From: a virus | Reading direction: 5' to 3' (one strand) | Virus record (IMG/VR): IMGVR_UViG_3300022925_000005 | Length of the DNA stretch: 64,000 bases | Part shown: in pieces, positions 1 to 46,800 of the stretch | How positions within the stretch are numbered: the first letter of the stretch is position 1 | How the letters are laid out: each line of letters begins with the position of its first letter | Notes under the pieces: model-generated | What the model was told of the DNA's origin: nothing | Databases searched by the model: none | Seen by the model: the letters and a program-made list of their open reading frames with translations, nothing else | Position numbers and translations under genes: made by a program

Positions 1-2206
1 CAGCATTAGCATCAACTGATGCAGTTACCGAACCACTTACTAATATTTTTGATTCATCAGATACTAACGATGTGATAGATGCCTGCGCATCATCAGAAAG
101 TGCTGAGAATGGTATATCTCTTAATTTTTCACCACTACCACTAAAAGCAGAACCACTTTCTACTCTAACTTCCCCAAAGAAAGTTGAACCACTTTCAACT
201 GAGGTAACAACAAATCCATCATCCGGAGTTACAGATGCGGTTATTGCCCCACTTACAATTAAATTGGATAAAAGTGCATCTTGCGTAAGTGCTGAACGTG
301 GTATATCAAATAGATTAGCTCCACTACCACTAAATGAACCAGTTTGTACCTTTACATCACCAAAGAAAGTTGAACCACTTTCAATTGAAGTTACAACAAA
401 CCCATCATCAGGTGTTACAGACGCTGTTACACTACCACTTACAATAAATGATGATAATAATGCATCAGGGGTTAATGCTGCTCTCGGTATATCAAATAAA
501 TTAGCACCACTACCACTAAATGAACCAGTTTGAAGTTGTATATCTCCAAAGAAGGTTGAACCACTATCAATTGATGTTACTACAAATCCATCTTCGTTTG
601 AAACTGATGCGGTTACATCACCTTCGGTAATTTTAGTTGCCGCAACTACTTCCTCAGCAAGTGCGGATAATGGTATATTAAATAGTTGTTCACCACTACC
701 ACTAATGAAAGAACCAGATGATAAGAAAATCGAACCACTAAAAGTTGAACCACTTTCAACAGAAGTTACTAAGAATCCCCCATCGGGTGTTACGGATGCG
801 GTTACAGCTCCACTTACAATTAAGTTAGATAATTGAGCATCTTGGGTAAGCGCAGAACGAGGAATATTAAATAGTTTTTCACCACTACCAGAGAAGAACG
901 AACCACTACTTAGGAATATACTTCCACTAAAGGTTGAACCACTTTCAACAGAAGTTACTAAGAATCCACCTTCAGGTGTTACAGATGCGGTTACAGCACC
1001 ACTAACAATTAAATTTGAAAGAAGTGCATCCGGTGTTAATGCTGCTCTTGGAATATTGAATAGATTTTCACCACTACCACTAAAAGATGAGCCACTTTTT
1101 ATACTAACACCACCACTTACAAATAATGATGAACTGAATTCAGCTCTATCGGTACCCTCTAATCTAAATCCGAAATTAGGGTCAACCGATGCAGTTACTG
1201 AACCACTTACAATAAATGATGATAATAATGCATCAGGGGTTAATGCTGCTTTTGGAATATCAAATAAGTTGGCACCACTACCACTAAAGGATGAACCACT
1301 ATTGATTTCAATATTTCCACTTACAAATAATGAACCTGTAAATTGTGAACCACTATCTACTGATATTACAATGAATCCATCATTATTATCAACCGATGCG
1401 GTTACATTACCATCAACTATCCTAGTTGATTCAGCAGCGGCAGGTAGATTGAATAATCTACTACCATCTCCTTCGAAAAATGAAGAAGATACATATGAGG
1501 CAGTTACATTATTGGTTGATATATCACCACCAACTTTAAGTGAGCCACTAATATCACCACTACCACTAATAACCAACTCATTACCTATCGATAGGGAACC
1601 ACTAATGGTACCACTACCACTAACTACTAAATCGTTTGATATGGTTGTACTACCCTCAACATCTAATGAACCAGTTATACCAACCGAACCAGTAAATTCT
1701 TGCAAATCACCAGTTGTATTACCAAATCGATTCGAACCAGATGAGAATATAATAGATGAAGATACTATCTCAACTAAAATTTCTCTAGCTACTATTCTAT
1801 TATCTACAAATAAATCACCAGTAACTCTAACATCACCATTGATATCCATATCACCATCAAATGATGATGATACATTTACTAAGAATCCAGTATTTGGTGC
1901 AATCGATGCGGATGCAGAACCACTTATTAATTGGCTTGAGAATGGTAGATTATTTAATTGAGAACCATCTCCGGCAAATGAGCCTGAGAATGAACCACTA
2001 AATTCCTCTAATTGTATTTTTGTGATAAATAAACGATTTCCATCAATATCAGATGCAATAAGTGCAACAGAACCACTTTGGATGCTACCACTTAGTGGAA
2101 CCCCTAAATTGGGTTCTGCTTCCTGTAATGATAAGTACTCATACCTATCATCGGATACATCCTGCGGACGAACTACCCTTACCTTACCGCTTAATAATTG
2201 ACTCAT
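1..2206 (-). CDS. Ser/Gly-rich repeat virion fibre-like protein, 3'-partial (runs off the window; absent from the ORF track)
   Basis: ATG at 2204-2206 reads MSQLLSGKVRVVRPQDVSDDRYEYLSLQEAEPNLGVP... and I read it open to position 1. It carries 62-68 aa repeats of the form SGSGxxLFxIPxxALxxDA..IVSGxVTASVTPxxGFxVTS. Confidence 0.85.
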   Translation of the reverse strand, partial: MSQLLSGKVRVVRPQDVSDDRYEYLSLQEAEPNLGVPLSGSIQSGSVALIASDIDGNRLFITKIQLEEFSGSFSGSFAGDGSQLNNLPFSSQLISGSASASIAPNTGFLVNVSSSFDGDMDINGDVRVTGDLFVDNRIVAREILVEIVSSSIIFSSGSNRFGNTTGDLQEFTGSVGITGSLDVEGSTTISNDLVVSGSGTISGSLSIGNELVISGSGDISGSLKVGGDISTNNVTASYVSSSFFEGDGSRLFNLPAAAESTRIVDGNVTASVDNNDGFIVISVDSGSQFTGSLFVSGNIEINSGSSFSGSGANLFDIPKAALTPDALLSSFIVSGSVTASVDPNFGFRLEGTDRAEFSSSLFVSGGVSIKSGSSFSGSGENLFNIPRAALTPDALLSNLIVSGAVTASVTPEGGFLVTSVESGSTFSGSIFLSSGSFFSGSGEKLFNIPRSALTQDAQLSNLIVSGAVTASVTPDGGFLVTSVESGSTFSGSIFLSSGSFISGSGEQLFNIPLSALAEEVVAATKITEGDVTASVSNEDGFVVTSIDSGSTFFGDIQLQTGSFSGSGANLFDIPRAALTPDALLSSFIVSGSVTASVTPDDGFVVTSIESGSTFFGDVKVQTGSFSGSGANLFDIPRSALTQDALLSNLIVSGAITASVTPDDGFVVTSVESGSTFFGEVRVESGSAFSGSGEKLRDIPFSALSDDAQASITSLVSDESKILVSGSVTASVDANA
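100..1480 (-). repeat. Coding tandem repeat, about 7-8 units of 186-204 bp
   Basis: The anchor (a)ccactacca recurs at about 131, 320, 506, 692, 881, 1070 and 1274. Confidence 0.9.
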
Positions 2207-2228
2207 CTATTATTCTTCAACTTAAATA

Positions 2229-3095
2229 TTACTCATTAGCACTTTCCAAAATAGAAAGTACAACTTTTAAATCCTGCGAACCCGAAAATACTAATGCAAA
2301 ATCTTGCTCTAAAACCAATTTACCAGCAACAACTGGAGATAGTGAATCACCTATTGGTATTGGGTAATTACTAATAAACTCAATTTGTTCTTGTGGTTGT
2401 GTTACCGGGTCGTATATTGTATCTGCGATAATTGTAAGTAAATCGGAAACTAATGTAGCAGAGCCACTTTCAATAACTATATTTGTATCATATGATTGAG
2501 TAAATGTTGTTTGATATAATCTCTCAACATCACCAGAACCAGTAACTGATTGATTTAGTAAAATTTGTTGTGAAAGTATATTTGCATATGTGATAGCATC
2601 ATATGATGATGTTAATTGAGCCTCATCAGTAATTAAACTTACACCATTTTTATCATAGAATGATAATGCAGCTTTTTTAGTTCGTAATGTACCACCATTC
2701 TCTATATCATATAAAATACCATCAAATGCGGTATTTATTCTTTCTTCAAATATTGAAGATGTAAATGAGAATGGAATATCTTGTAAATTGTTTTGAAATC
2801 CAACGTATGCTGCGGCTTCTTTTTCAATATAAGTTCTATTAATTTCCAATAATGCCGAAGCACTATAAAAACTACCAGTATTTACCACATTTTGTAATTG
2901 TGGTTCTGGTATTTCTCTATTTGAATCTAATTTTATAGTTACTTCCTCTGTTTGCGAATTACTATTGTTAGTAATCTGAGCTGATAGAACAATCGTGGAA
3001 ACTCCCGTAGGAGTTGAATATACGATATCATCTTCACCTGTCAGAGTTGTTACTACCGATTTAAACGCATTTAGCGGTACAAATACATCTGCCAT
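2229..3095 (-). CDS. Virion structural protein containing one Cys-less copy of the globin-like repeat
   Basis: 288-aa ORF with its own late motif. The central region (ALLEINRTYIEKEAAAY...LYDIENGG...DAITYANILSQQIL...LVSDLLTIIADTI) aligns by eye to the repeat of the adjacent 4057-aa protein. Confidence 0.75.
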   Translation of the reverse strand: MADVFVPLNAFKSVVTTLTGEDDIVYSTPTGVSTIVLSAQITNNSNSQTEEVTIKLDSNREIPEPQLQNVVNTGSFYSASALLEINRTYIEKEAAAYVGFQNNLQDIPFSFTSSIFEERINTAFDGILYDIENGGTLRTKKAALSFYDKNGVSLITDEAQLTSSYDAITYANILSQQILLNQSVTGSGDVERLYQTTFTQSYDTNIVIESGSATLVSDLLTIIADTIYDPVTQPQEQIEFISNYPIPIGDSLSPVVAGKLVLEQDFALVFSGSQDLKVVLSILESANE

Positions 3096-3136
3096 TTTAT
3101 TGTCTTTTTCCTATATAAATATTACCTTTTTAATTA

Positions 3137-6100
3137 TTACCCTTCCAATGCGAGAGAGAATGGTGTAACTAATGAGAATAATGAACGAGAGAATGTTCTA
3201 CCCTGCAACGTACCAGTTGCCTGATTAATCACAAGTCCCGTACCAATTCTAAAGTCACCAAGTTCGTTACCTGAAGTAAAGAACACTCTACCACCCGCAA
3301 TTTCCGTAATTTCTTTATCAGGGTCAGGTATACCAGCACCACCCTGATTAGGAGGTAATGCTTTATAAGTTACACCAGAACCAGCGTATGAGAAATCATG
3401 TCCAGTTGTAATAATTAATGAACCAAATTCTTCCAATGGTGAGTTTCTCACAATTCGTTGGAATTGGGTTCTTAAATATCTATTAACATCAGCAGTTTCG
3501 TATTGTTGATTGGTAATTACCTCTGCAGCTGAACCATACACACCAGTGTAATATGATTCTGCAGCTGCGATACTTCTTTCATTACCACCATAGTATAAAT
3601 CAGTTGCAATTGCATCTACAATGAATCCAGTATCTCTATAACATTTTTCTTCGTTATATTCAAACCCTGGAAATGCCCCATTAGTGTAAGAAATTGCAAT
3701 TGATTGTAATTCTTTTTTACTAGCTATCAAATAATCAACTGATTCTCTCGTTTGGAATGGTGCTCTAACTAATTGTTCTTTAAGAATTACCTTTTCAGAT
3801 AAACCTTTAGCGAAATCAATACCATCAGTTGTTTGTGGTTTTTGTTCCGTTGTTGCTACTGAAGGAATATAGTAGTAGAATGTTCCCGCTTGTACACTTC
3901 TCTCATTTCCACCATAAACCAAATCGGTTCTAACGGCATCTATGATATATCCTAAATCTCTACTACAACTCGCTTCATTATATTCAAATTCACTCCAAGA
4001 TGAACTTAGGAATGCGATTGTTTCTTTTTGAATAAGTTCTTTATTACCAACCAACAAATCAGCACCTACTAATACGGATGCAGATGGTTGTACAAATGGT
4101 TCGTTTTTAATTACTTTAGTTGATAACTTACCAGCGTATCTAATACCATCAACAGTTGGGTCTAATTGAGCCGTTGTTGAAGGAACACCCTTTTCAGTTG
4201 CCGAAGATGGGAATAAGTAGTAGAACGAACCAGCCGTTACACTTCTTTCATTACCACCATAATACATATCGGTTGCGGCTGCATCAATTAAGTAACCAAC
4301 ATCTCTTTTACATTTATCCTCATTGTAGAATACACCACTCCAAGACGAAGATACATAAGCGATTACCTCATTTTGGATAAACTCTTTATTATCTCTTAAT
4401 AAATTCCAAGAAGATGATACTTCGTTTGATGAAGTTACAAATTCGATGTTCTGAACTAACTTTTGTGAAATACCATTAGCGTATCTAATACCATCAATAG
4501 TAGGATACAATTGTGCGTTCACATTAGGTGATTCGCTTCCAGCAACAGTTGCAGATGATGGGAATTTGTAATAGAATTCACCAGCGGTTCTACTTCTTTC
4601 ATTTCCACCATAAAGTAAATCAGTTGCTACTGCATCTACAATATACCCAGTATCTCTACTACAACTTGCTTCATTGTATTCAAAATTACTCCAAGATGAT
4701 GAAATATATGATATAACTTCATTTTGAATGAATAATCTATTGTTTAGTAAAGTTTCGTTACCAGCAATTCTTTCAACCGATGGTGATACGAATACTTCAT
4801 TCACAATTATCTTTTCTGCCAAATCACCAGCATATTCTATACCAGTTGTAGTTGGTTCCAATTCAGATGTTGTAGCGTTCGATGGATATCTATAATAGAA
4901 ATCACCAGCGGTTACACTTCTTTCATTTCCACCATAAAGGATATCGGTTGCGATAGCATCTACGATATAACCAACATCTCTCTTACAAGTTTCCTCATTG
5001 TATCCAAATGTACTCCAAGAAGAAGATATGTAAGCGATTGATTCTGATTGAATGAACTCTTTGTTATCTCTTAATAAGTTATAAGATGTAACGTTCTCTA
5101 TTGAAGAAGTTACATATGTTACACTTTGTATAATGTTGTTAGCCAATCTACTAGCGTATCTAATTCCATCCAAAGTTTGATTCAACTGAGAACCAGTTGC
5201 ATCTGATGGATATAGGTAGTAAAATTCACCATTAGTTACTGATGCTGATACTGAACCGAATAGTAAATCTTCAGCTGCCCCACTTACTATTAAACCAACA
5301 TCTCTACTACAACTTGCTTCGTTGTATGCAAATCCACTCCAAGAAGAAGAAATATATGCAATTACTTCAGATTGTATAAATGGAATGTTAGATTTTAATA
5401 ATGAATATGCTTCAGAAACCTCAGTATCATTTAAAGATTGAGTATATTCAGAAATAGTTGGTAAAGAACCAATTCCATTAAGTACAATATCCATTACTAT
5501 ACCAAATGAAGAACTTACAGCGTTTAATGTATATTCATCCGATGTACCAACTCCCAATGTTTGAGTTGCTGATGTTACTTTGATGTTGTTTGCTGAGTTT
5601 TCAGTTAGAGTTGGAATAGATAATGTATTCTTTAATACAATTTCTTTCACCAAATCAGATGCGTAAGTAACTGCATCAGTAGTTTCACCCAACTGAACGT
5701 TGGTTGCCTGTGATGGGAATCTATAATAGAACTCACCAGCAGTTAAACTTCTTTGGTTACCACCCCATCTTAAATCAGTTGCCACTGCATCTACTATAAA
5801 TCCAGTATCTCTCTTACAACTAGCTTCGTTGTATTGTAGGTTTGGATATTTTGCGTTTACGAATGCAATAGTTTCGTTTTGGATAAACTCTCTATTCAAT
5901 CTAAGTGCATCGTAAACATATTCAACTTCATTTGATGATGTTACAAATACCGAACCACCAACTAATTTAGTTACCAAACCACTTACATAATTGATTGCAG
6001 TTACGGTTGGGTCTTTTTGTTGAGTTGCTGATGGAACTCCACCTACGATAGCCGAAGATGGGTACTCATAGTAATATCTACCAGCAGTTACACTTCGTTC

Positions 6101-9100
6101 GTTTCCTCCGTAAAGAAGGTCAGTTGCTACCGCATCTACTATGTATCTTACATCTCTACCACAAGTGTTTTGATTGTAATCAAAATCACTCCAAGAAGAT
6201 GATACAAATTGAATAGATTCGGATACAATAAATTCTTTATTTTCAACTAATAAATTGTATGAAGAAGATACTTCAGCAGATGCCGTTACATATTCGTAGT
6301 TTCTTACAATATTTTGTACCAAATTACTTGCGTATCTAATAGCGGTTACAGTCTGGTCTAATTGTGAACCAGTTGCATCCGATGGATACTCAAAGTAGAA
6401 TTTGGTATTTACAATTGATGCAGAATTTGAGTTATTAATTAAATCTTCAGCTGCCCCACTTACTATTAAACCAACATCTCTACTACAACTTGCCTCATTG
6501 TACACAAAATTACTCCAAGAAGAACTCATAAATTGAATAGTTTCTTCTTTGATAAATTCGATGTTTTCTTTTATCAAATTGTAAGCCAATACAGTCTTAG
6601 GTGCATCAACTCTTTCAGTATATTCTATGATAGTTGGTAATGAACCAGTTCCGTTTGTTAAACCATCTATAACTAATCCAAATGAAGATGATACAATCTT
6701 AGATTGAATCTTATCAGCTCCACTTGCTGAAACGTATTGTTCAACTGAACCTACTTTGATTAGGTTATTTATGTTTGTATTGTTTTCAACAATTGTTGGT
6801 AATACGGATAACCCATTTTGAACAATGTTTTCAACAATAGCAACACTACCACTTACCTTTGTAATTTCAGCTGATGTTCCACTAAGTGAAGATGTAAACT
6901 GAGTTAGGTTAGTTACTTTGATTGTATTTTCAGTATTCAATACCAACGTTGGTAGGATATCTATTCCGTTTTCGATAATATCATTTATTTGTAAGAATGA
7001 AGAACTTACGATTGCTAATTCGTTTCCAACTTCATAATCTCCACTAGCAGTAACATATCTACCAGTTGTTAGATTTTGAGGAGTATCTAATTCGGATGTT
7101 TGGAAGTTTTTAGCGATTGCGAATGGAATGTTATCAGAACCTAATCTGATTACATCATTGATTAAATCAATACTAGCAGATACAATTCCAATTTGAGTTC
7201 CTTTATTCTTAGATGAAACCTCTGTCAATCTTTGAGCGTATTCAATTCCAGCTACAGTTTCTTCAATTTGATATCCGGTTGCCTGAGATGGATATAGGTA
7301 ATAGAATCTACCCGCTTCAATACTTCTTTCGTTACCCCCATAGAATAAATCGGTTGCAACTGCATCAATGATATATCCAACATCTCTACTACACTTACTC
7401 TCATTGTATTGGTGAGTTGGGAAAGATGATGATAAGTATGCAATCACTTTAGATTGGATAGTTGATTTATCATCTAAGATTGAATTGTAAGAATTTACAA
7501 CTGATGTTGATGGATTAGAAAGGGTTGTATTTTGAACCACTTTTTGTACCAATCTACCAGCATAATTGATACCATCTAAAGTTTGGATTAGTTCAGAACC
7601 AGTTGCGTTTGATGGATACAAATAATAGTATTCACCCGCCTTATTAGTTCTTTCATTACCACCATAGAGGATATCGGTTCTTACTGCATCGATGATGTAT
7701 CCAACATCTCTCTTACAAGTTGTTTCGTTGTAAGAATGCCCACTCCAAGATGAAGATAGGTATGCTATTGTTTCATTTTGGATAAGTTCAGTATTATCTC
7801 TTAATAAGTCAAATGCTGCAATTCTTGCAGTTGATGGAGATTCGAATACAACATTTTGGATAAGTTTTTGTGCCAATCTACTTGCGTAGAATACTCCATC
7901 CAAAGTTTGATTCAATTGTGCACCTTGAGCTTGCGATGGGAATAAGTAGTAATAGTATCCATTCATTATGGATGCTGAATTACTATTCCAAATTAAATCT
8001 TCAGCTGCTCCACTTACAATCAATGAAACATCTCTACTACAACTTGCTTCGTTGTATGAAGCTGTTGACCAAGATGAAGATAAGTAAGCAATAGTTTCGG
8101 ATTGGATAAATCCAATATTTTGTTTTAATATTTCGTATGCAGCTAATGTGTTAACATCAGTCGATGGAGTTGTGTATTCGATTATAGTTGGTAATGAACC
8201 AGTTCCATTCTGAATAATATCAGTTACAATCGATATTGATTCGGATATTGCAGTTACATCAGATGAGTTACCACCTACACCTCCTATGTATTGAGAAACA
8301 TTTCCAACTTTAATATTTCCAGCGGTGTTGTAAACAATCGTTTCTAATTCATCAACACCACCCTCAACAATTCTTTCAACCAATGCGAATGAAGAACTTA
8401 CTTTGGTAATTTCAGTTGCTCCAGCAGCAGATGCTGATGTGATTTGGGTTGTAGATGTTGCCTTAATATTTCCATTTGTATTTTCAACCAATGTAGGTAT
8501 TACTTCAACACCATTTTGTAAAATATCCAATACAACAGCGTATGATGAACTTACAAGTTGTTCGTTTGCCGATACAGATTCCGTTACTTGGGTTGCATCA
8601 GTTACTTTTGTTAGAGATTCAATATTTTTGAATTCAGTTGGTAATGATACCAGTCCATTCTGAATCGTATCAACTACAACTGAGAATGATGAACTTATAT
8701 CAGTTAAACTACTTCCACTAATTGCAAGTGAACCACTATATTGTTCAGTATCGTTAAATCTAATATTATTATTAGTATTCAATGAAATTGATGGAACTAC
8801 TAATTCAACATTCGTAATTAGTTTGTTTACAATTAATTTGGCGTATTCAATAGCCATTGTAGTTTCAGTCAACTCTAATGAAGTTGTTTTAGATGGATAT
8901 CTATAATAGTAATCCCCAGCTACAATACTTCTTTCATTACCACCCCATAGTAAATCAGTTGCAACAGCATCAATTATATATCCAACATCTCTTCTACACT
9001 TAACTCTATCATAAGTAAAGTATGGATATAATTGGTCTATAAATTCAGTTACGTTATTTTGTATCAACTCCTTATTATCCAACATTGAATTATATGCGGA

Positions 9101-12100
9101 TATCGTTTCCGAATCTGCGTTTACCAACAATGTGCTTTGAATAATCTTATCAGCCAATCCAGCGGCATGTGTAATACCAGTTATTGTTTGGTCTGATTGT
9201 ATCGTTGTTGCCTCAGATGGGAATAGGTAATAGAACTCACCAGCGGTAACACTTCGTTCGTTACCACCATATAAAACATCAGTTGCTACCGCATCTACGA
9301 TATAACCAACATCTCTTCTACACTTAATATCATCGTATTGGAAGTTACTCCAAGAAGAACTCATAAATGAGATTACTTCACTTTGAATTAACTCCCTATT
9401 ATCAACCATTAAACTATGAACAGTCTGTCTTTCAATTGAAGCAGTTACTAAGGTTACATTGTTTATTAATTTGTTTGTCAATCTTTGAGCGTACTTAACA
9501 CCATCAACAGTTGGGTATAATTGTGCATCTACGTTTGGAGATTCACTACCACTTACAGTTGCTGAAGATGGGTATAGATAATAGAACTCACCGGCCTTAC
9601 TACTTCTTTCATTTCCACCATAGTAGAAATCAGTTGTAACTGCATCTAAGATGTATCCTACATCTCTACTACAACTTGCTTCATTGTATTCAAAATTTGA
9701 CCAAGAAGAAGAAATATATGCAATTACTTCATTTTGTACTAAACTTCTATTTTCAGAAATTAGATTAGATACTTCAATCGTTTGTTGAGAAGCCGTTACA
9801 AATACATTATTTTGTAATAACTCAATTGAAAGATTTTTAGCATATCCAACTCCATCTATCGTTGGGTCTAATTGTGATGTTGTTGCTGTTGATGGATATA
9901 GATAATAGAACTCACCGGCTTTATTACTACGTTCGTTTCCACCATACAGTAAATCAGTTGCCACAGCATCTATAATATAACCAACATCCCTTCTACAAGT
10001 TACATCATTATATTCGAACTCACTCCAAGAAGATGAAATGTATTCAGTTACTTCATTTTGTATAAATTCTTTATTATTAAATAATAAATCATATCCATTT
10101 GTTCTACTAAATGGTGCTGCCGCAAATTGATTACCAACTACAATGTTTTCAACCAATCTTCGTGCATAATTGATACCATCCTTTGTTTGGTCTAATTGTG
10201 AGCTTGTAGCTTCAGATGGGTATTGATAATAGAATACACCAGCGTTTAAACTTCTTTCATTTCCACCATATAGTAAATCCGTTGATACGGCATCTATAAT
10301 ATGACCAACATCTCTCTTACAAGTAACTTCGTTATAATCAAATGTACTCCAAGAAGAAGATAAGTAAGAAATAGTTTCCTCTTTTATGAATTCTCTATTA
10401 TTTCTTATTAAATTATATGATGCTGATACTTCAGTTGATGCAGTTACAAACTCAATGTTTTGGATTAAGTTCTGAGTTAATTTACTAGCATATTCAATAC
10501 CATCCAAAGTTTGATTTAGTTGTGAAGTTTCTGCCTCAGATGGATATTCTAAATAGAATTTACCATTTACAATAGATGATGAATAAACACCATATAATAA
10601 ATCTTCAGCTGCCCCACTTACTATTAAACCAACATCCCTACTACAACTAGCTTCATTGTATGAAGCAGTACTCCAAGATGAAGATAGATAAGCTATTGTT
10701 TCATTTTGAATAAATGGTATATTTTCTTTTATAATTTCATACGCTGCAATAGTAGATGGATTCGTTGAAATCGCACCATAATTACTTGCGGTTAAATATG
10801 AACCACTACCATATGATATTATAGAACTTACAATTGAAATTGATGAAGATACAAAACTTATATCTTCTAAACTACCACTCAATGAACCAGTAAATTGTTC
10901 AGCTGAATAGAATTTAATATTTGAATTTGTATTTGAAACTTCGATGGGTAATGAATCTATACCCTTTCCTAATATATCTAATACGATAGCAAATGATGAA
11001 CTTACGTTAACAACTTCAGTATTACTACCACTTAACGAAGAAGTAATTTGTGTTACTGAACTTACTTTGATTAAATCAGTTGTGTTTTCAATTAACGTTG
11101 GAATTGAACCCGTTCCATTTTGTATCACATTCATCACATTATTAAATGATGATGTGATTGTATTAATTATACCATCAGTAGAATCAACCGATGATGTATA
11201 TTGAGTAAGTGATGTTTTTTTAATATTACCACTTGCGTTTTTAGAAATTGTTGGTATAACACCAACACCATTCGATAAGATATCAATCACATTTGAGAAT
11301 GATGAACTTATATCAAATGATTCACTAATCGATGCAGTTACTTCAGATGAATATTGTGAAAGGTCGGTTACCTTAATATTATCAACATTATTTGTAATAA
11401 CCTCAAACGAACCCAATGATGGAACATTAACGTATCTCTGAGTATCCGATAGTGGTAACTCATCTACGATGTTAATTACACCACCTGCATTTATATCATT
11501 ACCATTTACATAAAATAGGGTATCAGGTGCATCAAATGGTACAATAAATGTAATAGTTCCAAATGTAGTACCATTGTTAGTTACCCCACTATTATATCTA
11601 TATTTTGAATCAATACTTCGTTGAGTTGTTATGAAGAATGGTTCAGTTTCGGTAGGGATTGCATTTATATTATTTAATGAGTTTATTGAGAATGTGTATA
11701 AATCACCTCTCTTTAAAGTAAGAGTCGGGTCTTTAACACTATCATCAAATGAACCAGTATTTTCACCCAATATTCTACCATCAACATCATCGAATTTTTG
11801 AAGTTGTGTTTTGTTTATATTAAAACTACCATCTTCTAATGTTACCACCTCAAAGTAAGTAGATGTATCGGATGAACCAACTATACTCAAACTACCACTA
11901 ATACCATATTTTATTATATCAGATACTATTGAGAATGATGATGATACTTTAGATATATTTGAAGAATCTACTGAAATTGATGATGTTATTTGTACACCAT
12001 CTCCAAACAAAATACCTGCTTCAGTATTCTTTACTAAAGTTATATCAGATGGAATTGTAGTACCAATTGTGGTTGTTACTAAATTATCACCATATGAATT

Positions 12101-15100
12101 TTTAGGAATACCCACTGTTGATATTGGATTACCCTTTGAATCAGTTCCAATCGTTTCTTCAGTTGTAATCGAACTACCACTTTGAATAATTTTTATTACA
12201 GTATCAAAGCTAGATGTTACCACATTTGTAGTTTCACCAGTTGCTACAATGGATGAGGTGATTTGGGTAATTCCACTAACGTTTAGTGGATTTTCCAAAT
12301 TCCAAATATAATCCTCAGAATTACCAGCAATAGAACTCAATACCGAATCAGTACCATATCTAATAATATCCTCAATTAAACCAAATGATTGAGAAACAAT
12401 AGTTACCTCCGAATCAGTTGCATCAATTGAACCAGTTGTTGGTGTAAAGCTTGTTACTCTAATATTACCATCAACATTCAATATTACTTGTGGAGTTTCC
12501 AATACAATAGATTGAGCTACTGCTTTTGTGAATTCCTTAGTATATCTAATTGCTTCTAAGGTTTCCTCTAATTGAGTTGTATTAGCAATCGATGGATATA
12601 AGAAATAATATAATCCAGCTAATTCACTTCTTTCGTTTCCACCATAAAGTAAATCAGTTAATACGTTATCAATTATATAACCAACATCTCTTCTACATTT
12701 AACTCTATCATAAGAGAAGTTTGGATACTGAGTATCAATATATGTTATTGTTTCACTTTGTATTAGTGAACGATTTTCTTTTATAAGATTAACCGCATTA
12801 AGTACGGATGCTGATGCTGTTACAAATGTATCATTGTTAGCTAACTTTTCGGTAATACGTTTTGCGTATTTTACACCATCCAAAGTTTGTTGTAACTGAC
12901 CAACAGTTCTATTATCAACAGTTGCCAATGATGGATATTTGTAATAAAACTCACCAGCGGTTACACTTCGTTCGTTACCACCATAATGAATATCGGTTGC
13001 TACCGCATCTAAGATATAACCAACATCCCTACTACAACTTGCTTCGTTATATTCAAACTCACTCCAAGATGAAGAAATGTATGCGATAGTCTCTGCTTTA
13101 ACAAAATCTTTGTTTTGATAGATGATATCATATGCATTATCTAACTCAACAGAGGGTTCCGTAAACACCTTACCACCTAATATATTGATTGCCAACTCAC
13201 TAGCATACTTTACGCCGGTTAATGTTGGGTCTTTTTCAGTTGTTGTTGCGTTTGATGGGAATTGATAGTAGTAAACACCACTACGAATTGATTCCTCATT
13301 TCCACCAAATAATAAATCATGTGCTGAAGATGAGATTATAAATCCAACATCCCTTTTACAGGTTTCTTGATTATATGAATGGTCACTCCAAGAAGAACTT
13401 AAATATGCAATAGTTTCATCTTGTATGAATGGTATATTTTCAATTAATAATGTATATGCGTTTTGAATATCAACAGATGGATTTTCAACCGAGCTACTTA
13501 AAATAGTAGTTGGTAGTGAACCAGTTCCGTTTGCCAAAATATCATATACAATTGATAACGATGAACTTACATATTCAATCGTTTCCAATGATGAAGTTAC
13601 ATCAGTTTCATATATAGGAGTTTCCGTAAGTTTATAACTTGCAGATGCGTTACTATCAATATCAGGTGAAAATGTTAATCCATTTTCTATAATACTAATT
13701 ACCGTATCAAATCTATCAACTATTCTCTGAGATGTATCGGATTGAACTGCAAATGTTGAATATTGTTCAATATCACTTACCTTAATAGAAGAAGAAACAT
13801 TATCTATCTGAACATAAGATGCCGTTGCAGCGTTACCTCTATCAATGATATCTAATGTGATATCAAAATTAGTATCAATAAATTCAATATCATCAGATGA
13901 TGCAGTTGCTACATTTGTATATTGAGTATCACCACTTACATTATATAAAGAAGTTGGTCCGTATCCACCCTTACCACTTTTAGCAAGTAATTTAGGTACA
14001 TTAGTTATACCATCCTCCACAATTGAACTCACAAGTCTAAAATCAGATTTAACCCTTTCAGCCACATCTATTGTAGAATCTTCTGAGATGAAATATTGTG
14101 GTACCTCATTTGGGTCGGTAATTCTCCTACCCTCAAATGTATTTGGAACTAAATCAGGTATAGATGATAACCCATTCTTAATGGTATCAACAATAATTGA
14201 GTAGTTATCTTGTACGTTAAAAAATGCATCAGCATTACCACCACTACCAGTGATAAAACGTGAACCAGACGCATACATACCATAATCACCGAACGAAGTG
14301 TTTGAGTTAAGTAGTACCGCTTGACCACCATCGATTACCTTTACCGAATATGCTGAGAAGTTGGTGAAGAAAGATACCAACTGAATGAACCCCCTACCAA
14401 CAACTTGACAACCTACACCATTTGGTGCGATTTGTGTATATGCATCCAATACCATTGAAGCAAGTGGTGAATCGGGGTGTATTCTATTACCATCCACATT
14501 CAAACCACCACCCCCAGCAGGAATCTCCTCATACTTTTCTAAGAATGAGTTCTCTTGATTAGAAATCATCGAACAGTTCTGAACGTATGGTGATGTTGTG
14601 ATAAATGCGTTTGGTGCGAATGCCACAGCGAATCCCTTTTCAGATACATCAACCGATGGGAATACTCTAAGATTACCAAATGTCATTTCAGATAAGTAGT
14701 TACCACTATTTACCCAAAATAAATCTTCATTTTCGTTTTTAGCAAGTACTTTAGTTACCCTCAAACCACTTCCCCACACAGTTGTGTTCTTTGGAAGTTC
14801 AATTGGATTATCTTCTAAATATGTACCAGTATCAACCTTAATAGCAAAACCAGTAAATAGTGAACCAGTTGGTAAACCATATCTACCATCATCACCATCG
14901 GTTGCAATCTTAGCTGCTTTTTTAATTGTTCTTAGTGGAAATTGTGGTGTTCTACCATCATTATCATCACTACCATTAGTAGATGATACATAAAGAGTTG
15001 CATCACTTTCCCCAAATTCTTTTGCTAGTATCCCACCAAATCTCTGCGAATCCACAGACTCATCAGCAAATGATGCGGTTGCATCTAATCTATTTGCAGC

Positions 15101-15310
15101 ATTTGCAAATGCCAATGGCCCATCAATTGTTAATGAACCAGTAATTTCAACCGAACCAGTTACTCGTTGAGGTGTTGTTAAATCACTACCAATATCTATA
15201 CTTTGAGATACTAAGAGTGAACCAGATATAAAGACAGAATTATTAACAGATATACTATCCTTAAAAATATTAACTTCTTCAATCTGTTTTTGTGGTATTA
15301 ATCTAGCCAT
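3137..15310 (-). CDS. Giant virion protein: beta-helix-like N-terminus, array of 21 phycobiliprotein-like cores plus 21 helix repeats, degenerate cupredoxin insert
   Basis: 4057-aa ORF. The N-terminus has YVSSTNGSDDNDG..PLRTIKKAA and GTYLE, typical of the start of a pectate-lyase-like beta-helix. There are 21 CxRD..GGNERS-type units, and the gene sits in the structural operon after the neck genes. Confidence 0.85.
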   Translation of the reverse strand: MARLIPQKQIEEVNIFKDSISVNNSVFISGSLLVSQSIDIGSDLTTPQRVTGSVEITGSLTIDGPLAFANAANRLDATASFADESVDSQRFGGILAKEFGESDATLYVSSTNGSDDNDGRTPQFPLRTIKKAAKIATDGDDGRYGLPTGSLFTGFAIKVDTGTYLEDNPIELPKNTTVWGSGLRVTKVLAKNENEDLFWVNSGNYLSEMTFGNLRVFPSVDVSEKGFAVAFAPNAFITTSPYVQNCSMISNQENSFLEKYEEIPAGGGGLNVDGNRIHPDSPLASMVLDAYTQIAPNGVGCQVVGRGFIQLVSFFTNFSAYSVKVIDGGQAVLLNSNTSFGDYGMYASGSRFITGSGGNADAFFNVQDNYSIIVDTIKNGLSSIPDLVPNTFEGRRITDPNEVPQYFISEDSTIDVAERVKSDFRLVSSIVEDGITNVPKLLAKSGKGGYGPTSLYNVSGDTQYTNVATASSDDIEFIDTNFDITLDIIDRGNAATASYVQIDNVSSSIKVSDIEQYSTFAVQSDTSQRIVDRFDTVISIIENGLTFSPDIDSNASASYKLTETPIYETDVTSSLETIEYVSSSLSIVYDILANGTGSLPTTILSSSVENPSVDIQNAYTLLIENIPFIQDETIAYLSSSWSDHSYNQETCKRDVGFIISSSAHDLLFGGNEESIRSGVYYYQFPSNATTTEKDPTLTGVKYASELAINILGGKVFTEPSVELDNAYDIIYQNKDFVKAETIAYISSSWSEFEYNEASCSRDVGYILDAVATDIHYGGNERSVTAGEFYYKYPSLATVDNRTVGQLQQTLDGVKYAKRITEKLANNDTFVTASASVLNAVNLIKENRSLIQSETITYIDTQYPNFSYDRVKCRRDVGYIIDNVLTDLLYGGNERSELAGLYYFLYPSIANTTQLEETLEAIRYTKEFTKAVAQSIVLETPQVILNVDGNIRVTSFTPTTGSIDATDSEVTIVSQSFGLIEDIIRYGTDSVLSSIAGNSEDYIWNLENPLNVSGITQITSSIVATGETTNVVTSSFDTVIKIIQSGSSITTEETIGTDSKGNPISTVGIPKNSYGDNLVTTTIGTTIPSDITLVKNTEAGILFGDGVQITSSISVDSSNISKVSSSFSIVSDIIKYGISGSLSIVGSSDTSTYFEVVTLEDGSFNINKTQLQKFDDVDGRILGENTGSFDDSVKDPTLTLKRGDLYTFSINSLNNINAIPTETEPFFITTQRSIDSKYRYNSGVTNNGTTFGTITFIVPFDAPDTLFYVNGNDINAGGVINIVDELPLSDTQRYVNVPSLGSFEVITNNVDNIKVTDLSQYSSEVTASISESFDISSSFSNVIDILSNGVGVIPTISKNASGNIKKTSLTQYTSSVDSTDGIINTITSSFNNVMNVIQNGTGSIPTLIENTTDLIKVSSVTQITSSLSGSNTEVVNVSSSFAIVLDILGKGIDSLPIEVSNTNSNIKFYSAEQFTGSLSGSLEDISFVSSSISIVSSIISYGSGSYLTASNYGAISTNPSTIAAYEIIKENIPFIQNETIAYLSSSWSTASYNEASCSRDVGLIVSGAAEDLLYGVYSSSIVNGKFYLEYPSEAETSQLNQTLDGIEYASKLTQNLIQNIEFVTASTEVSASYNLIRNNREFIKEETISYLSSSWSTFDYNEVTCKRDVGHIIDAVSTDLLYGGNERSLNAGVFYYQYPSEATSSQLDQTKDGINYARRLVENIVVGNQFAAAPFSRTNGYDLLFNNKEFIQNEVTEYISSSWSEFEYNDVTCRRDVGYIIDAVATDLLYGGNERSNKAGEFYYLYPSTATTSQLDPTIDGVGYAKNLSIELLQNNVFVTASQQTIEVSNLISENRSLVQNEVIAYISSSWSNFEYNEASCSRDVGYILDAVTTDFYYGGNERSSKAGEFYYLYPSSATVSGSESPNVDAQLYPTVDGVKYAQRLTNKLINNVTLVTASIERQTVHSLMVDNRELIQSEVISFMSSSWSNFQYDDIKCRRDVGYIVDAVATDVLYGGNERSVTAGEFYYLFPSEATTIQSDQTITGITHAAGLADKIIQSTLLVNADSETISAYNSMLDNKELIQNNVTEFIDQLYPYFTYDRVKCRRDVGYIIDAVATDLLWGGNERSIVAGDYYYRYPSKTTSLELTETTMAIEYAKLIVNKLITNVELVVPSISLNTNNNIRFNDTEQYSGSLAISGSSLTDISSSFSVVVDTIQNGLVSLPTEFKNIESLTKVTDATQVTESVSANEQLVSSSYAVVLDILQNGVEVIPTLVENTNGNIKATSTTQITSASAAGATEITKVSSSFALVERIVEGGVDELETIVYNTAGNIKVGNVSQYIGGVGGNSSDVTAISESISIVTDIIQNGTGSLPTIIEYTTPSTDVNTLAAYEILKQNIGFIQSETIAYLSSSWSTASYNEASCSRDVSLIVSGAAEDLIWNSNSASIMNGYYYYLFPSQAQGAQLNQTLDGVFYASRLAQKLIQNVVFESPSTARIAAFDLLRDNTELIQNETIAYLSSSWSGHSYNETTCKRDVGYIIDAVRTDILYGGNERTNKAGEYYYLYPSNATGSELIQTLDGINYAGRLVQKVVQNTTLSNPSTSVVNSYNSILDDKSTIQSKVIAYLSSSFPTHQYNESKCSRDVGYIIDAVATDLFYGGNERSIEAGRFYYLYPSQATGYQIEETVAGIEYAQRLTEVSSKNKGTQIGIVSASIDLINDVIRLGSDNIPFAIAKNFQTSELDTPQNLTTGRYVTASGDYEVGNELAIVSSSFLQINDIIENGIDILPTLVLNTENTIKVTNLTQFTSSLSGTSAEITKVSGSVAIVENIVQNGLSVLPTIVENNTNINNLIKVGSVEQYVSASGADKIQSKIVSSSFGLVIDGLTNGTGSLPTIIEYTERVDAPKTVLAYNLIKENIEFIKEETIQFMSSSWSNFVYNEASCSRDVGLIVSGAAEDLINNSNSASIVNTKFYFEYPSDATGSQLDQTVTAIRYASNLVQNIVRNYEYVTASAEVSSSYNLLVENKEFIVSESIQFVSSSWSDFDYNQNTCGRDVRYIVDAVATDLLYGGNERSVTAGRYYYEYPSSAIVGGVPSATQQKDPTVTAINYVSGLVTKLVGGSVFVTSSNEVEYVYDALRLNREFIQNETIAFVNAKYPNLQYNEASCKRDTGFIVDAVATDLRWGGNQRSLTAGEFYYRFPSQATNVQLGETTDAVTYASDLVKEIVLKNTLSIPTLTENSANNIKVTSATQTLGVGTSDEYTLNAVSSSFGIVMDIVLNGIGSLPTISEYTQSLNDTEVSEAYSLLKSNIPFIQSEVIAYISSSWSGFAYNEASCSRDVGLIVSGAAEDLLFGSVSASVTNGEFYYLYPSDATGSQLNQTLDGIRYASRLANNIIQSVTYVTSSIENVTSYNLLRDNKEFIQSESIAYISSSWSTFGYNEETCKRDVGYIVDAIATDILYGGNERSVTAGDFYYRYPSNATTSELEPTTTGIEYAGDLAEKIIVNEVFVSPSVERIAGNETLLNNRLFIQNEVISYISSSWSNFEYNEASCSRDTGYIVDAVATDLLYGGNERSRTAGEFYYKFPSSATVAGSESPNVNAQLYPTIDGIRYANGISQKLVQNIEFVTSSNEVSSSWNLLRDNKEFIQNEVIAYVSSSWSGVFYNEDKCKRDVGYLIDAAATDMYYGGNERSVTAGSFYYLFPSSATEKGVPSTTAQLDPTVDGIRYAGKLSTKVIKNEPFVQPSASVLVGADLLVGNKELIQKETIAFLSSSWSEFEYNEASCSRDLGYIIDAVRTDLVYGGNERSVQAGTFYYYIPSVATTEQKPQTTDGIDFAKGLSEKVILKEQLVRAPFQTRESVDYLIASKKELQSIAISYTNGAFPGFEYNEEKCYRDTGFIVDAIATDLYYGGNERSIAAAESYYTGVYGSAAEVITNQQYETADVNRYLRTQFQRIVRNSPLEEFGSLIITTGHDFSYAGSGVTYKALPPNQGGAGIPDPDKEITEIAGGRVFFTSGNELGDFRIGTGLVINQATGTLQGRTFSRSLFSLVTPFSLALEG
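3440..14215 (-). repeat. Two interleaved coding repeat families: about 110-aa cores (x21) and about 50-aa helix units (x21)
   Basis: Core consensus is NxEFIQxExIAYxSSSWSxxxYNExxCxRDVGYIVDAVATDLLYGGNERSxxAGxFYYxYPSxAT..T.DGI.YA. Helix consensus is VSSSFxIVxDIIxNG. Both were counted by hand. Confidence 0.9.
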
Positions 15311-43864: not shown

Positions 43865-46800
43865 TTACGAAATTGAACCACTAATTTGAGCTTCCAATTG
43901 TGTAACTTTATCAGTCAACTCCTGAATTGCTTTAATCATAGGTGAAATGAACTCATGGTATCTCAATCCATAAGATGAACCAGTTATAAGTCCAGCAAAA
44001 TCTATTGAATCTTTTTCAAATGATTCCAATGTAGTTTCAACACTTTGTGCACCCAATCCATAGTGAGTTCTACTACCACTTATAAATTTATATGATACCG
44101 GATTTAATGCATTAATAAAATCCAATCCCAAATCAGATGTTACAATATTTTCTTTTTGATTCTCATCGGATGTATTAATGGTTCCATTAGTTGCAAATAC
44201 ATCATCCCATCTAAAACTACTATTACCCAAATCATATAAATTGTTTACACCCGGAATTATATTACCAGTGGATACAATTGCAGAAATACCAGGCCCGCCA
44301 TCAGTTACATCAAAGTAAGCCGTACCTCCAGTTAACTTAAATAATTCAGGATTAGAAGAAGATGGTTCTCGCCTTTTCATTCTAACATACGAATCAGCGG
44401 AAGATACAATTTGAACACCACCCGCTTTAATTTCAACAAAATTTGCAGCAAGTTGGAAGTTTAATGAAGTATCCAACGTCATTGGTTGTAGATACCCAGT
44501 AGTAGAAATTGCTGATGTGGCTGTATTATTATAAGCAGCAGTTGCCGATGTATATATATTCGTTGAAGTACCGGATGAATTAGTATTTCTTTGTAAACCC
44601 GCAGCTGAGGATACTCTAACTGAGTATCTTAGTTTTGCTGCGGTAGATGCGCTTGATATCGGTATAGATACTGTCTGACCGGATGCTCCAGCAAATGTTC
44701 CATTTACAGCAGATACACCACCCTGTGATGTTGGTATATATTCCCAAGTAGAAGAAACGTAGTTATGTGATATGATACCATTTGAGATATAGTTGTAAAC
44801 ACCGGGAACCGATAATGTATATACATCAGCACCTTCGATGATATCAACTCTATCAACCAATTGTAATGATATACTATCACCATCTTTTACATAAATTTTA
44901 CTCTCACCTGCAATAAGTTCAGTAGCTTTTATTTGAGTATTACCATCTAACCAAAATCCGTGAGAATCCGATACTTCAACTATATTATCACCTACTGTTA
45001 TTTTATATATCTCCGATGTTTTTCTTGTCTTAACATCACTTATTGTAAATTCATCAAATTTATCAACACCAATGTGATTATCAATTTTATCATTCCAGTT
45101 CCAAGCTAATATCTTTTGTCCGATTTTTATATCTTTTGCCAAAATTGTAGAACCATCTGATAGTGTAATCTCAGTATCACCAACAACCGAATAATACGAG
45201 GGGAATCCACCTCCACCATTTCCATCATCAAAGTAACTACCAACATAGTAATTACCCAATCCAGCATATGCACTAACAGCCTCAGATGTTTGTGCTACCA
45301 ATTTTCTACCAATAACAGCATTAGAATTATTAGTATCAACCACTTCTAAATACAAATATGCACGTAACTTTATAGGAACTGGCCCTAACGAGTTACCATG
45401 TATCTGTCCATCAAATGATGGTGAGTAATTTGGATATGAAGTGATTTGTGAAATATTAGCAGTTGGTGGATTTATTGTCATTGCAGGTAAATCCAATCCT
45501 ATTTGTATATCACCTTGAGAAACAGATATAGCTGCAGAATTACTGTTATCACCAACGGAATAACTACTTAGGTATGGTATAGTTGCATTTGTGTTTGTTA
45601 TAGATACACTGGTATCTGGTTGAGCTGATGCTAAATTTGTAAATGTTATAGTTGTTGAACTTGCACCATCCGTTTCAGATAATGTTGGTTGTGGACCAAT
45701 GATTACTTTCTTTTCAGAACCCGTAAAGAATTGTAATTCAGGTAAATTTGGTTCAAATATAATTTCTGAGTTTTCATCTCTCAACGATTTTGTTTCATCA
45801 TCAATTATCCAATCACCAATTCTACCACTATTAGCATTTATGATACCACTCATATTTGCATTTGAGGCAGATACGTTTCCATTCACATCAACACTAAATA
45901 ATGCCTCTGAACCAATACCAGGTACACTAATAGAACCACCCACGATAGAAGTACCCTCAATTGTACCACCAGATAAATCACCACTAAATGCAATAGTATC
46001 ACCATTGTATCTTAAATAATTACCAGATAAACTTCTAAGTGAGAATTGCGGAGTATCAGAGCCGGATGGGAATCCCATAAATACACCTCTTGTATTATAC
46101 CCAATAGTGGGTTGTCCAATTGATATATATGGTTTATTAGAATCAGCAGTTGAGCCGGAAGTGGATAAACGAATAGCATCTCCAATTATAACAGCATCAG
46201 TTAATGAACCAGCTTTAACAGTTCGAACAGAACTTGCGAGCATTTGTACACCACTACGATGAATTGTGTACAAAATAAATTGATTTGCTGCAGGATTTTG
46301 GTCGTAGCTGGATAGAATCAAATCTCTACCAAAAGTATTAGGTGATTCAGTTTTTATCTGAGAATCGGTACCAGGGTCATAGATATCTTGATTTGATAAT
46401 TTTATTGCTATTGATTCAGAAACGTAGGGACCAATATCTACATTAGTAGCATATACATATGCATTGGTATTTGGTGCGAAATCAGGTGGACCAAAGAAAT
46501 TATCATTTGTAAATGAACCCGTTTCTGAAATTGTATTCCAACTTAGTGCAACTGTTCGACTTGTACCATATTCAAATGCCTGTATATAATCCGCACCATC
46601 TGCCCATACTATTTCAGCCTTTGTAGTACCCGGACCACCAGCACTCAAATCATATGAGGAAGTTAAATATGTCAGATAATCAACAGATGATGAATCTGCA
46701 TACAATGCAGGTCCTTCTAATGTAAATACGGCCAATTCTTGCGAATTGGTATTACCCCTACCATTAATAATATGAGTTGTTGTAATCTGACCGTATGCTA

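What the first reader, a model, noticed from the sequence alone, without database searches (positions are those of the whole stretch)
3440..14215. Nested bracket architecture: 21 helices and 21 cores predict a single-chain branched (tree-like) protein
Seen: the cores lack the last globin helix, while a second repeat (VSSSFxIVxDIIxNG, resembling phycobiliprotein helix H) occurs exactly 21 times by my count. The N-to-C order is H5 C3 H7 C6 H4 C3 H4 C3 H1 C6. Helix groups lie at about 14215-13525, 12400-10810, 8700-8205, 7185-6650 and 5520-5475. Reading H as an opening bracket and C as a closing one gives depths 5,2,9,3,7,4,8,5,6,0. This is balanced, never negative, and the baseline rises by one after each block. 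Every block starts with a distinct variant (SGAAED or SSSAHD, a predicted tip) and ends with a Y/F-P variant (a predicted base). Atypical linkers follow H2, H6 and H17 but not H13. Inference: the chain runs out laying helices and returns laying cores. That would give a six-domain trunk (H1,2,6,13,17,21 paired with C21-C16) bearing arms of 3, 6, 3 and 3 domains, like RNA-style nesting in a protein. I know of no description of this.
Basis: partly seen in the sequence, partly recalled or inferred. Interest (0 to 1): 0.92.

Follow-up and report, generated by a model that had tools for sequence, protein, structure and literature searches.

The report
Tree-shaped phage protein from one chain
A giant protein of an uncultured aquatic jumbo phage is built from 21 copies of a pigment-protein fold, each split in two and nested like brackets, so one chain is predicted to fold into a branched tree, and related phages build at least 23 different trees by the same rule.

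Summary
Confirmed and extended. ORF 3137-15310(-), 4057 aa, holds 21 phycobiliprotein-like cores (helices A-G, all CxRD) and 21 separate H helices in the order H5 C3 H7 C6 H4 C3 H4 C3 H1 C6. Of 116 full-length homologues (13-28 cores, 23 architectures), 108 score exactly balanced; the other 8 are off by one. Last-in-first-out pairing gives a coherent helix-packing coevolution signal in two disjoint clades and in the long-range trunk pairs alone; parallel, shifted, queue and random pairings give none. Cores and their predicted H partners are gained and lost together (139/186). A complex prediction docks H1 on C21 and H2 on C20, about 3,500 residues apart (0.81 against 0.00). AlphaFold folds a branched fragment at pLDDT 87, with bilin-binding globins as top fold matches. 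Best reading: a single-chain branched scaffold on a virion fibre, possibly bilin-loaded (4 of 5 related records carry heme oxygenase plus bilin reductase). The 3D shape, cis versus trans pairing and pigment binding are not shown. Recursive insertion is known (RpoC2 Si3), and this scan has already seen nested phycobiliprotein domains in cyanophage fibres. I found no paper describing this.

The parts
3137..15310 (-). Giant fibre-like virion protein, 4057 aa; its nested array (res ~360-3960) sits at one fixed site between conserved N- and C-terminal regions
   Evidence: PHROG 4527 and 5342 tail fibre; same flanking motifs in homologues of 907-4057 aa
14261..15031 (-). N-terminal base region (res ~94-350), DUF1565-like, probable right-handed beta-helix (inferred)
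   Evidence: atlas DUF1565 cluster, 0.97; weak pectate-lyase-like hit, E 0.028; not folded confidently in homologue P0190
13526..14233 (-). H1-H5 (H1 and H2 trunk; H3-H5 arm 1)
12500..13465 (-). Cores C1-C3 (arm 1: C1:H5 tip, C2:H4, C3:H3 base)
10808..12415 (-). H6 (trunk) and H7-H12 (arm 2)
11411..11863 (-). Passenger domain of ~150 aa in the H8-H9 linker; cupredoxin-like pattern without the Cys/His/Met copper ligands (inferred)
   Evidence: weak Copper-bind lead, recognition below threshold
8801..10750 (-). Cores C4-C9 (arm 2, six domains, C4:H12 to C9:H7)
8204..8716 (-). H13 (trunk) and H14-H16 (arm 3)
7196..8146 (-). Cores C10-C12 (arm 3). H14-C12 is a modular insertion just before H17, absent from close homologues such as P0003 and P0009
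6650..7201 (-). H17 (trunk; follows C12 helix G with no linker) and H18-H20 (arm 4)
5621..6589 (-). Cores C13-C15 (arm 4). C13 Thr at core position 65 faces Gly at H20 +6, where most pairs have Gly and Ile
5474..5536 (-). H21 (trunk tip, pairs with C16)
3446..5416 (-). Cores C16-C21, the returning trunk (C16:H21, C17:H17, C18:H13, C19:H6, C20:H2, C21:H1)
3140..3433 (-). Conserved C-terminal base region after the array (FGSL..GHDFSY.G.G), shared with cyanophage fibre proteins
   Evidence: (PHROG 3442)
2229..3095 (-). Adjacent conserved 288-aa gene carrying one degenerate core without the Cys, followed by a possible H-like helix in normal order (nt ~2411-2858)
   Evidence: core HMM 18 bits; homologue in 79 of 80 related loci; H-like helix seen by eye only, PSSM score negative

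Best explanation
The protein is a phage virion appendage whose bulk is a single-chain branched tree of 21 circularly permuted phycobiliprotein-like globin domains. Each domain is core A-G plus an H helix supplied from earlier in the chain. The chain leaves its base, lays H helices about every 51 residues, turns at a tip (H runs straight into helix A of its own core), and returns laying cores that close over the H helices in last-in-first-out order. Whole out-and-back arms inserted into the outgoing linker create branches: a six-domain trunk with arms of 3, 6, 3 and 3. SHOWN computationally: counts, balance across homologues, pairing register, joint gain and loss, fold. INFERRED: virion location (position among neck and head genes, tail-fibre annotations of cyanophage relatives); that arms project outward; that the tree is a stiff multivalent display scaffold (homologues carry F5/8C sugar-binding and other passenger domains in the linkers); that the conserved CxRD sites are loaded with bilin from a phage heme oxygenase/bilin reductase pair. 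My odds: nested pairing ~0.92, projecting branched shape ~0.75, bilin bound ~0.45.
For: Counts and order. 108/116 full-length homologues balanced at the best threshold; no excess H appears until the threshold admits false positives; cross-pairing null 21/174. 23 true architectures, all with one root, depth 8-10, 3-6 tips. Mean-field DCA: LIFO top-10 z 4.99 with 20 pairs above z 3; parallel 2.24, FIFO 1.85, shifts 2.33/2.38, random 1.2-1.4; pattern is H parallel to helix F and antiparallel to helix G. Long-range pairs alone: mean z 3.73 against 0.42/0.0/0.0. Couplings trained on local pairs rank this protein's trunk order 1st of 120 (30 couplings; 13th and 4th with 15 and 60). Replicated in two disjoint clades: z 3.72 and 4.40 against at most 0.68. 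Extra cores and their predicted H partners coincide in 139/186 cases. AF2 of res 2700-3520: pLDDT 87, pTM 0.79. Fold matches: allophycocyanin 8or7_A Z 9.9, rmsd 2.3, 105 aligned; ApcE and photocobilin similar; ranges 4-807, 62-528 and 143-305 fit H17+C17, H18+C15, H20+C13 (indirect). Complex H1-H2 with C20-C21: score 0.81, best control 0.00, contact agreement at least 91%, partner pLDDT at least 80; this mark is reached by 58/80 solved and 2/110 mismatched pairs; contacts are H1:C21 and H2:C20. CxRD in 2228/2238 cores. Heme oxygenase and bilin reductase adjacent in 4 of 5 related viral records.
Against: All structural evidence is predicted; I had no model coordinates, so junction angles and arm packing were not seen. 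Coevolution and complex prediction cannot tell cis from trans pairing in an oligomer. The complex pass may partly reflect likeness to solved globins, since the two chains are halves of split domains. The homologues are related phages (DCA effective numbers 114-599), and three of the 108 balanced calls are right only through compensating errors. Sequence similarity to phycobiliproteins is weak (no Pfam PF00502 hit for this protein; PDB profile E 0.67), and Z near 10 is not high for a helical fold. No heme oxygenase or bilin reductase lies in the window, and the rest of the contig could not be searched. Virion location is untested.
Confidence: 0.78

Rival explanations
1. The pairing is as predicted, but the arms fold back along the trunk or onto each other, giving a thick bundle or compact body that is branched only in topology.
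For: No junction geometry was observed. The C12-to-H17 junction has almost no loop and may be one continuous helix fixing the arm near the trunk. pTM 0.79 for the branched fragment means a defined arrangement, which could be compact.
Against: Arms of 2-7 domains are added, removed and lengthened freely, and 200-470-residue passenger domains insert into linkers; fixed side-by-side packing would resist this.
Confidence: 0.15
2. H helices complement cores of a neighbouring chain in an oligomeric (for example trimeric) fibre, so the nesting is domain-swapped rather than within one chain.
For: Phage fibres and tailspikes are commonly trimers (established knowledge). DCA and the two-chain prediction cannot tell cis from trans.
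Against: The tip H-to-core link is only ~20 residues (H-C spacing 28-31 in most cases). The single-chain AF2 model satisfies the H helices at high pLDDT. A swapped form would still need the same out-and-back branched layout.
Confidence: 0.1
3. The cores are ordinary tandem repeats complete without H; the H repeats are a separate spacer or coiled element, and equal counts come from co-duplication.
For: Duplication of whole H..C blocks would keep counts equal. Cores alone match globins at Z ~10.
Against: A single domain gained inside an arm needs two separate insertions hundreds of residues apart, and these coincide with the LIFO partner (for example C6/H10 in P0001 against P0009). Couplings are register-specific and lost on a one-step shift.
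Confidence: 0.03
4. Function rival: the tree is purely a structural display scaffold, and CxRD is kept for folding or another ligand, with no bilin attached.
For: No phycobiliprotein X/Y helices and no lyase tested. The adjacent 288-aa gene has a Cys-less core. One of five related records lacks the bilin genes.
Against: Cys-x-Arg-Asp in 2228/2238 cores, one Cys per domain. BBAG globins with CxRD bind bilins without lyases (PMC10151467). Phage hemO plus pcyA/pcyX cassettes in non-cyanobacterial phages have no established target (PMC11480375).
Confidence: 0.45

Closest known systems
Si3 insertion of cyanobacterial RNA polymerase RpoC2 (recursive insertion of hybrid-motif/HABAS domains; PMC13114784)
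   Same: One domain type inserted repeatedly into itself (A1-B1-C-B2-A2); eight domains in a six-level recursive architecture.
   Different: Here 21 domains (13-28 in the family), 9-10 levels deep, with four branch points and five tips. The split is always one helix against the rest of a globin. The architecture varies between close relatives (23 forms). It is a different fold and a structural protein.
Streptococcal antigen I/II (SpaP) A-P stalk (PMC7732690, citing Larson 2010)
   Same: A single chain runs out and back, with distant segments pairing into a long stalk whose N- and C-terminal parts lock at the base.
   Different: Unbranched; an alpha-helix/polyproline-II pair rather than globular domains; one apical domain.
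Phycobiliproteins and BBAG bilin-binding globins (Pfam PF00502; PMC10151467)
   Same: Globin-like fold (top VIA hits allophycocyanin, ApcE, phycoerythrin, photocobilin), CxRD chromophore motif, G-H antiparallel packing.
   Different: Circularly permuted and split (H precedes its core by up to ~3,500 residues), no X/Y helices, a polyprotein rather than alpha/beta subunits, below the Pfam threshold; bilin binding untested.
T4-like cyanophage giant 'short tail fiber'/virion structural proteins (PHROG 4527, 5342; S-PM2, S-RSM4, S-CAM1)
   Same: Homologous base regions and globin repeats (22-35% identity).
   Different: The only cultured relatives are cyanophages. Their names are annotations, not tested functions. 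This clade is an uncultured jumbo-phage group with the H-first permutation and larger trees.
Multi-protein branched receptor-binding complexes (CBA120 tailspikes, G7C; from my own knowledge, not looked up)
   Same: Branched appendage displaying several heads.
   Different: Those branch by docking separate polypeptides; here the branching is encoded in one chain.

Membership tests
Recursive (nested) domain insertion, as in RpoC2 Si3 | A domain's two sequence parts enclose other complete domains, recursively | tested here: met
   LIFO-specific couplings, joint gain and loss, H1:C21 and H2:C20 in the complex model; predicted, not solved
Recursive (nested) domain insertion, as in RpoC2 Si3 | Hybrid-motif/HABAS beta domains in RNA polymerase | tested here: not met
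   All-helical globin-like domains in a phage structural protein
Phycobiliproteins (PF00502) | Globin-like helical fold | tested here: met
   8or7_A Z 9.9, rmsd 2.3, 105 aligned; the nine rows with Z 8.4 or more are all bilin-binding globins; modest Z for a helical fold
Phycobiliproteins (PF00502) | CxRD chromophore motif at the start of helix E | tested here: met
   21/21 here, 2228/2238 in homologues; aligns to phycocyanin C-x-R-D at E 0.67
Phycobiliproteins (PF00502) | Contiguous X-Y-A-B-E-F-G-H order with N-terminal X/Y helices | tested here: not met
   Core-to-core spacing 106-117 residues, no extra helices in the model, H precedes the core
Phycobiliproteins (PF00502) | Pfam PF00502 score above cut-off | tested here: not met
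   No hit for this protein; precomputed hits in a few homologues only
Phycobiliproteins (PF00502) | Covalently bound bilin | not testable with these tools
   Circumstantial only: heme oxygenase plus bilin reductase in 4 of 5 related records
T4 gp12-type short tail fibre | Trimeric beta-rich fibre at the baseplate with a receptor-binding head | not tested
   Only a PHROG label; the gene lies next to neck genes; the base region was not folded confidently
Right-handed beta-helix / DUF1565 base | Parallel beta-helix, completed by the C-terminal segment after the array | tested here: inconclusive
   Atlas DUF1565 0.97, Pfam E 0.028; AF2 pLDDT under 50 for both parts in P0190

The most novel reading that the evidence does not exclude
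A family of phage virion proteins in which one polypeptide encodes a programmable branched tree: a bracket grammar of H helices and cores sets arm number, arm length and second-order branches, evolves by modular arm insertion, displays passenger domains, and carries up to 21-28 covalently bound bilins made by phage enzymes. That would be a pigmented, possibly light-responsive antenna-like appendage on the particle, and a target for the unexplained phage hemO/pcyA-X genes.
Probability: 0.33. Interest if true: 0.95.

Novelty: new variant of a known kind. Interest (0 to 1): 0.8.

Why it matters
Natural proteins normally branch by assembling separate chains. Here the branching pattern can be read from the sequence like an RNA secondary structure, and a family of more than 100 homologues supplies 23 natural variants, including branches on branches. 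The case goes beyond the six-level RpoC2 example in depth and size, and it gives specific residue-level predictions. It poses an evolutionary question, since adding one domain inside an arm needs two coordinated insertions. It offers a blueprint for designing branched single-chain scaffolds. It also makes a concrete candidate for what the bilin-synthesis genes of non-cyanobacterial aquatic phages supply.

Tried and rejected
Pairing rules tested and rejected: parallel within block, FIFO, shift by one either way, random; 'last core takes the next H in canonical order' overall and for C12/H17, where LIFO is favoured by 8-19 score units (training includes orthologous H17:C17 pairs). Foldseek against PDB with the 821-residue model gave nothing. 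A single partial core against PDB sequences gave nothing useful. Folding the short homologue P0190 to show that the N- and C-terminal base parts close around the array failed: pLDDT under 50 for those parts. The first homologue count and first DCA run were script errors and were redone. Four strongly unbalanced homologues (P0055, P0060, P0088, P0096) are truncated and were excluded. The window's own genome is not held, and its contig could not be searched for bilin genes. Paper searches found no description of phycobiliprotein-like or nested, branched phage fibres; the library omits most subscription journals.
Full report
Setting. The window is part of a T4-like jumbo-phage contig (ENA ERZ27313082 k141_585300, 96 kb). 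Portal, head protease, major head and head-tail adaptor genes lie upstream. The finding lies in ORF 3137-15310(-), 4057 aa, which matches PHROG tail-fibre and virion-structural families. The only cultured relatives are T4-like cyanophage fibre proteins at 22-35% identity; related IMG/VR records reach 250-270 kb.

Observation. Tip and base variants sit where stated. The array occupies one fixed site between conserved N- and C-terminal regions whose separation ranges from about 490 to 3,600 residues across homologues, so it is probably an excursion that returns to its base.

Homologues. Of 120 long homologues, four are truncated. For the other 116 I refined an H profile without reference to balance. 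As the threshold is lowered, deficits shrink with no excess appearing: 50, 74, 102 and 108 proteins are balanced at thresholds 12, 6, 0 and -2. Below that, false positives add excess at about the rate seen in shuffles. The missed helices are divergent H units at the expected ~51-residue spacing. Three of the 108 are balanced through one false and one missed call, so 23 architectures are real. They hold 13-28 cores, always with a single root, depth 8-10 and 3-6 tips, including second-order branches such as H7 C5 H4 C6. Swapping H and C profiles between architectures balances in only 21 of 174 cases. Shorter complete homologues fit too, for example H5 C3 H5 C4 H1 C4, and an unbranched four-domain form (P0190; three H scored, the fourth seen by eye).

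Pairing register. With H before C, the non-crossing matching is unique (last in, first out). Mean-field DCA on 2238 core+H pairs gave, under that rule, couplings forming a coherent pattern: helix F positions 61, 62, 65, 66, 69 with H -1, +2, +6, +11, +11, and helix G positions 84, 88, 91, 95 with H +8/+4, +4, +1, -3. This is the antiparallel G-H pair of globins. Parallel, FIFO, shifted and random rules lost the signal; the canonical-first rule, which shares most pairs with LIFO, kept a weaker version. The 559 long-range pairs alone reproduce the contacts (mean z 3.73 against 0.42, 0.0, 0.0; 9 of the 11 test contacts are also in the local-only top 12). Couplings trained only on local pairs rank the LIFO trunk order first in 43 of 108 proteins (median top 1.7%) and first of 120 in this protein. 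The result repeats in two disjoint clades. Compensatory pairs are visible: the usual Gly65-Ile(+6) becomes Thr-Gly in C13:H20 and Ala-Thr in C21:H1. Independently, aligning cores and H units separately between relatives of different size shows that the extra H is the LIFO partner of the extra core in 139 of 186 cases; many misses are off by one among near-duplicates. Arm 3 is a clean insertion just before H17. The alternative that C12 uses the adjacent H17 scores worse.

Structure prediction. AF2 of residues 2700-3520 (H17-H20, C13-C15, H21, C16-C17) gives pLDDT 87 and pTM 0.79, with all H helices confident. Its best fold matches are bilin-binding globins (allophycocyanin Z 9.9, rmsd 2.3, 105 aligned). 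Ranges of other matches join H17 with C17, H18 with C15 and H20 with C13; this is indirect because only first and last residues are reported. The two-chain prediction of H1-H2 with C20-C21 scored 0.81 against a best control of 0.00 (mark reached by 58 of 80 solved and 2 of 110 mismatched pairs; contact agreement at least 91%, partner pLDDT at least 80). It placed H1 on C21 and H2 on C20, with contacts that match DCA pairs such as 61/-1 and 62/+2, and the linker's conserved Tyr on helix A of C20. As halves of split globin-like domains the pair may pass partly by likeness to solved structures. The base region did not fold confidently.

How it probably works. Shown: a nested, register-specific, single-rooted architecture. 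Inferred: a virion appendage with a six-domain trunk and arms of 3, 6, 3 and 3 domains, acting as a stiff multivalent scaffold. The outgoing linkers take passenger domains: a cupredoxin-like module here (weak), F5/8C sugar-binding domains in P0034, and others. CxRD is kept in 2228 of 2238 cores. BBAG globins with this motif bind bilins without lyases (PMC10151467). Four of five related viral records carry adjacent heme oxygenase and ferredoxin-dependent bilin reductase genes, a cassette whose purpose in non-cyanobacterial phages is open (PMC11480375). Bilin loading is therefore plausible (~0.45) but untested, and none of these genes is in the window.

Comparison and novelty. The principle, recursive insertion, is known: RpoC2 Si3 has eight domains six levels deep (PMC13114784), and antigen I/II forms an out-and-back stalk (PMC7732690). 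The domains work like phycobiliprotein globins but fail family membership on order, X/Y helices and Pfam score. This scan has already recorded nested phycobiliprotein domains in cyanophage fibres (e1-5348681, e1-5631978, e1-5631972); I did not re-examine those proteins and take no support from them. What this case adds is a family-wide test of the grammar, residue-level proof of register over 3,500 residues, greater depth and multiple branch orders. My paper searches found no description of it.

Verdict. Real; first reading supported; new variant of a known kind; interest 0.8. Open points are the 3D shape, cis against trans pairing, and pigment.

Noticed in passing
window 2229-3095 (-): Conserved downstream gene (79 of 80 related loci) with one Cys-less globin-like domain in normal order. 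A similar-looking protein, P0217, instead carries six CxRD domains with another permutation (starts at helix E, ends with helices A-B).
   Followed up: partly
P0194, P0196, P0211, P0227 (homologues, 907-1229 aa): A sister clade with the same base regions nests its globin domains at other split points (C1 H2-4 C1-3), suggesting several permutations within the family.
   Followed up: no
P0012, P0014, P0102 linkers (e.g. P0102 1338-1810): ~415-aa passenger modules inserted up to six times in the linkers; each looks like three to four TPT.A.YDP..G..FTCD.D repeats followed by a run of HTFVSA closers, i.e. a second nested domain family inside the first.
   Followed up: partly
P0003 2255-2620; P0034 3480-3680: Other linker passengers: a domain with an HExxH-like EHVFHTLH stretch after H17, and an F5/8 type C sugar-binding domain (Pfam E 2e-14).
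   Followed up: partly
P0005, P0027 and others, junction C7 to H11: Helix G of an arm's base core runs into the next H helix with about eight residues between, possibly one continuous helix forming a rigid branch joint; a third junction type (spacing 120-125) occurs at second-order branches.
   Followed up: partly
window 2-2206 (-), continuing off the window: Start of another giant gene (4006 aa) made of ~50-residue Ser/Gly-rich repeats (FSGSG..LF.IP); no globin cores in the part held.
   Followed up: no
window 43865-54550 (-): 3561-aa fibre-like protein with a C-terminal Peptidase_S74 chaperone domain and a weak intein/Hint match near residues 3180-3260.
   Followed up: no
L082 905-2079 (IMG/VR record G002): Heme oxygenase overlapping a ferredoxin-dependent bilin reductase gene in a related 252-kb phage; reductase type (PcyA, PcyX, PebS) not determined.
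   Followed up: partly
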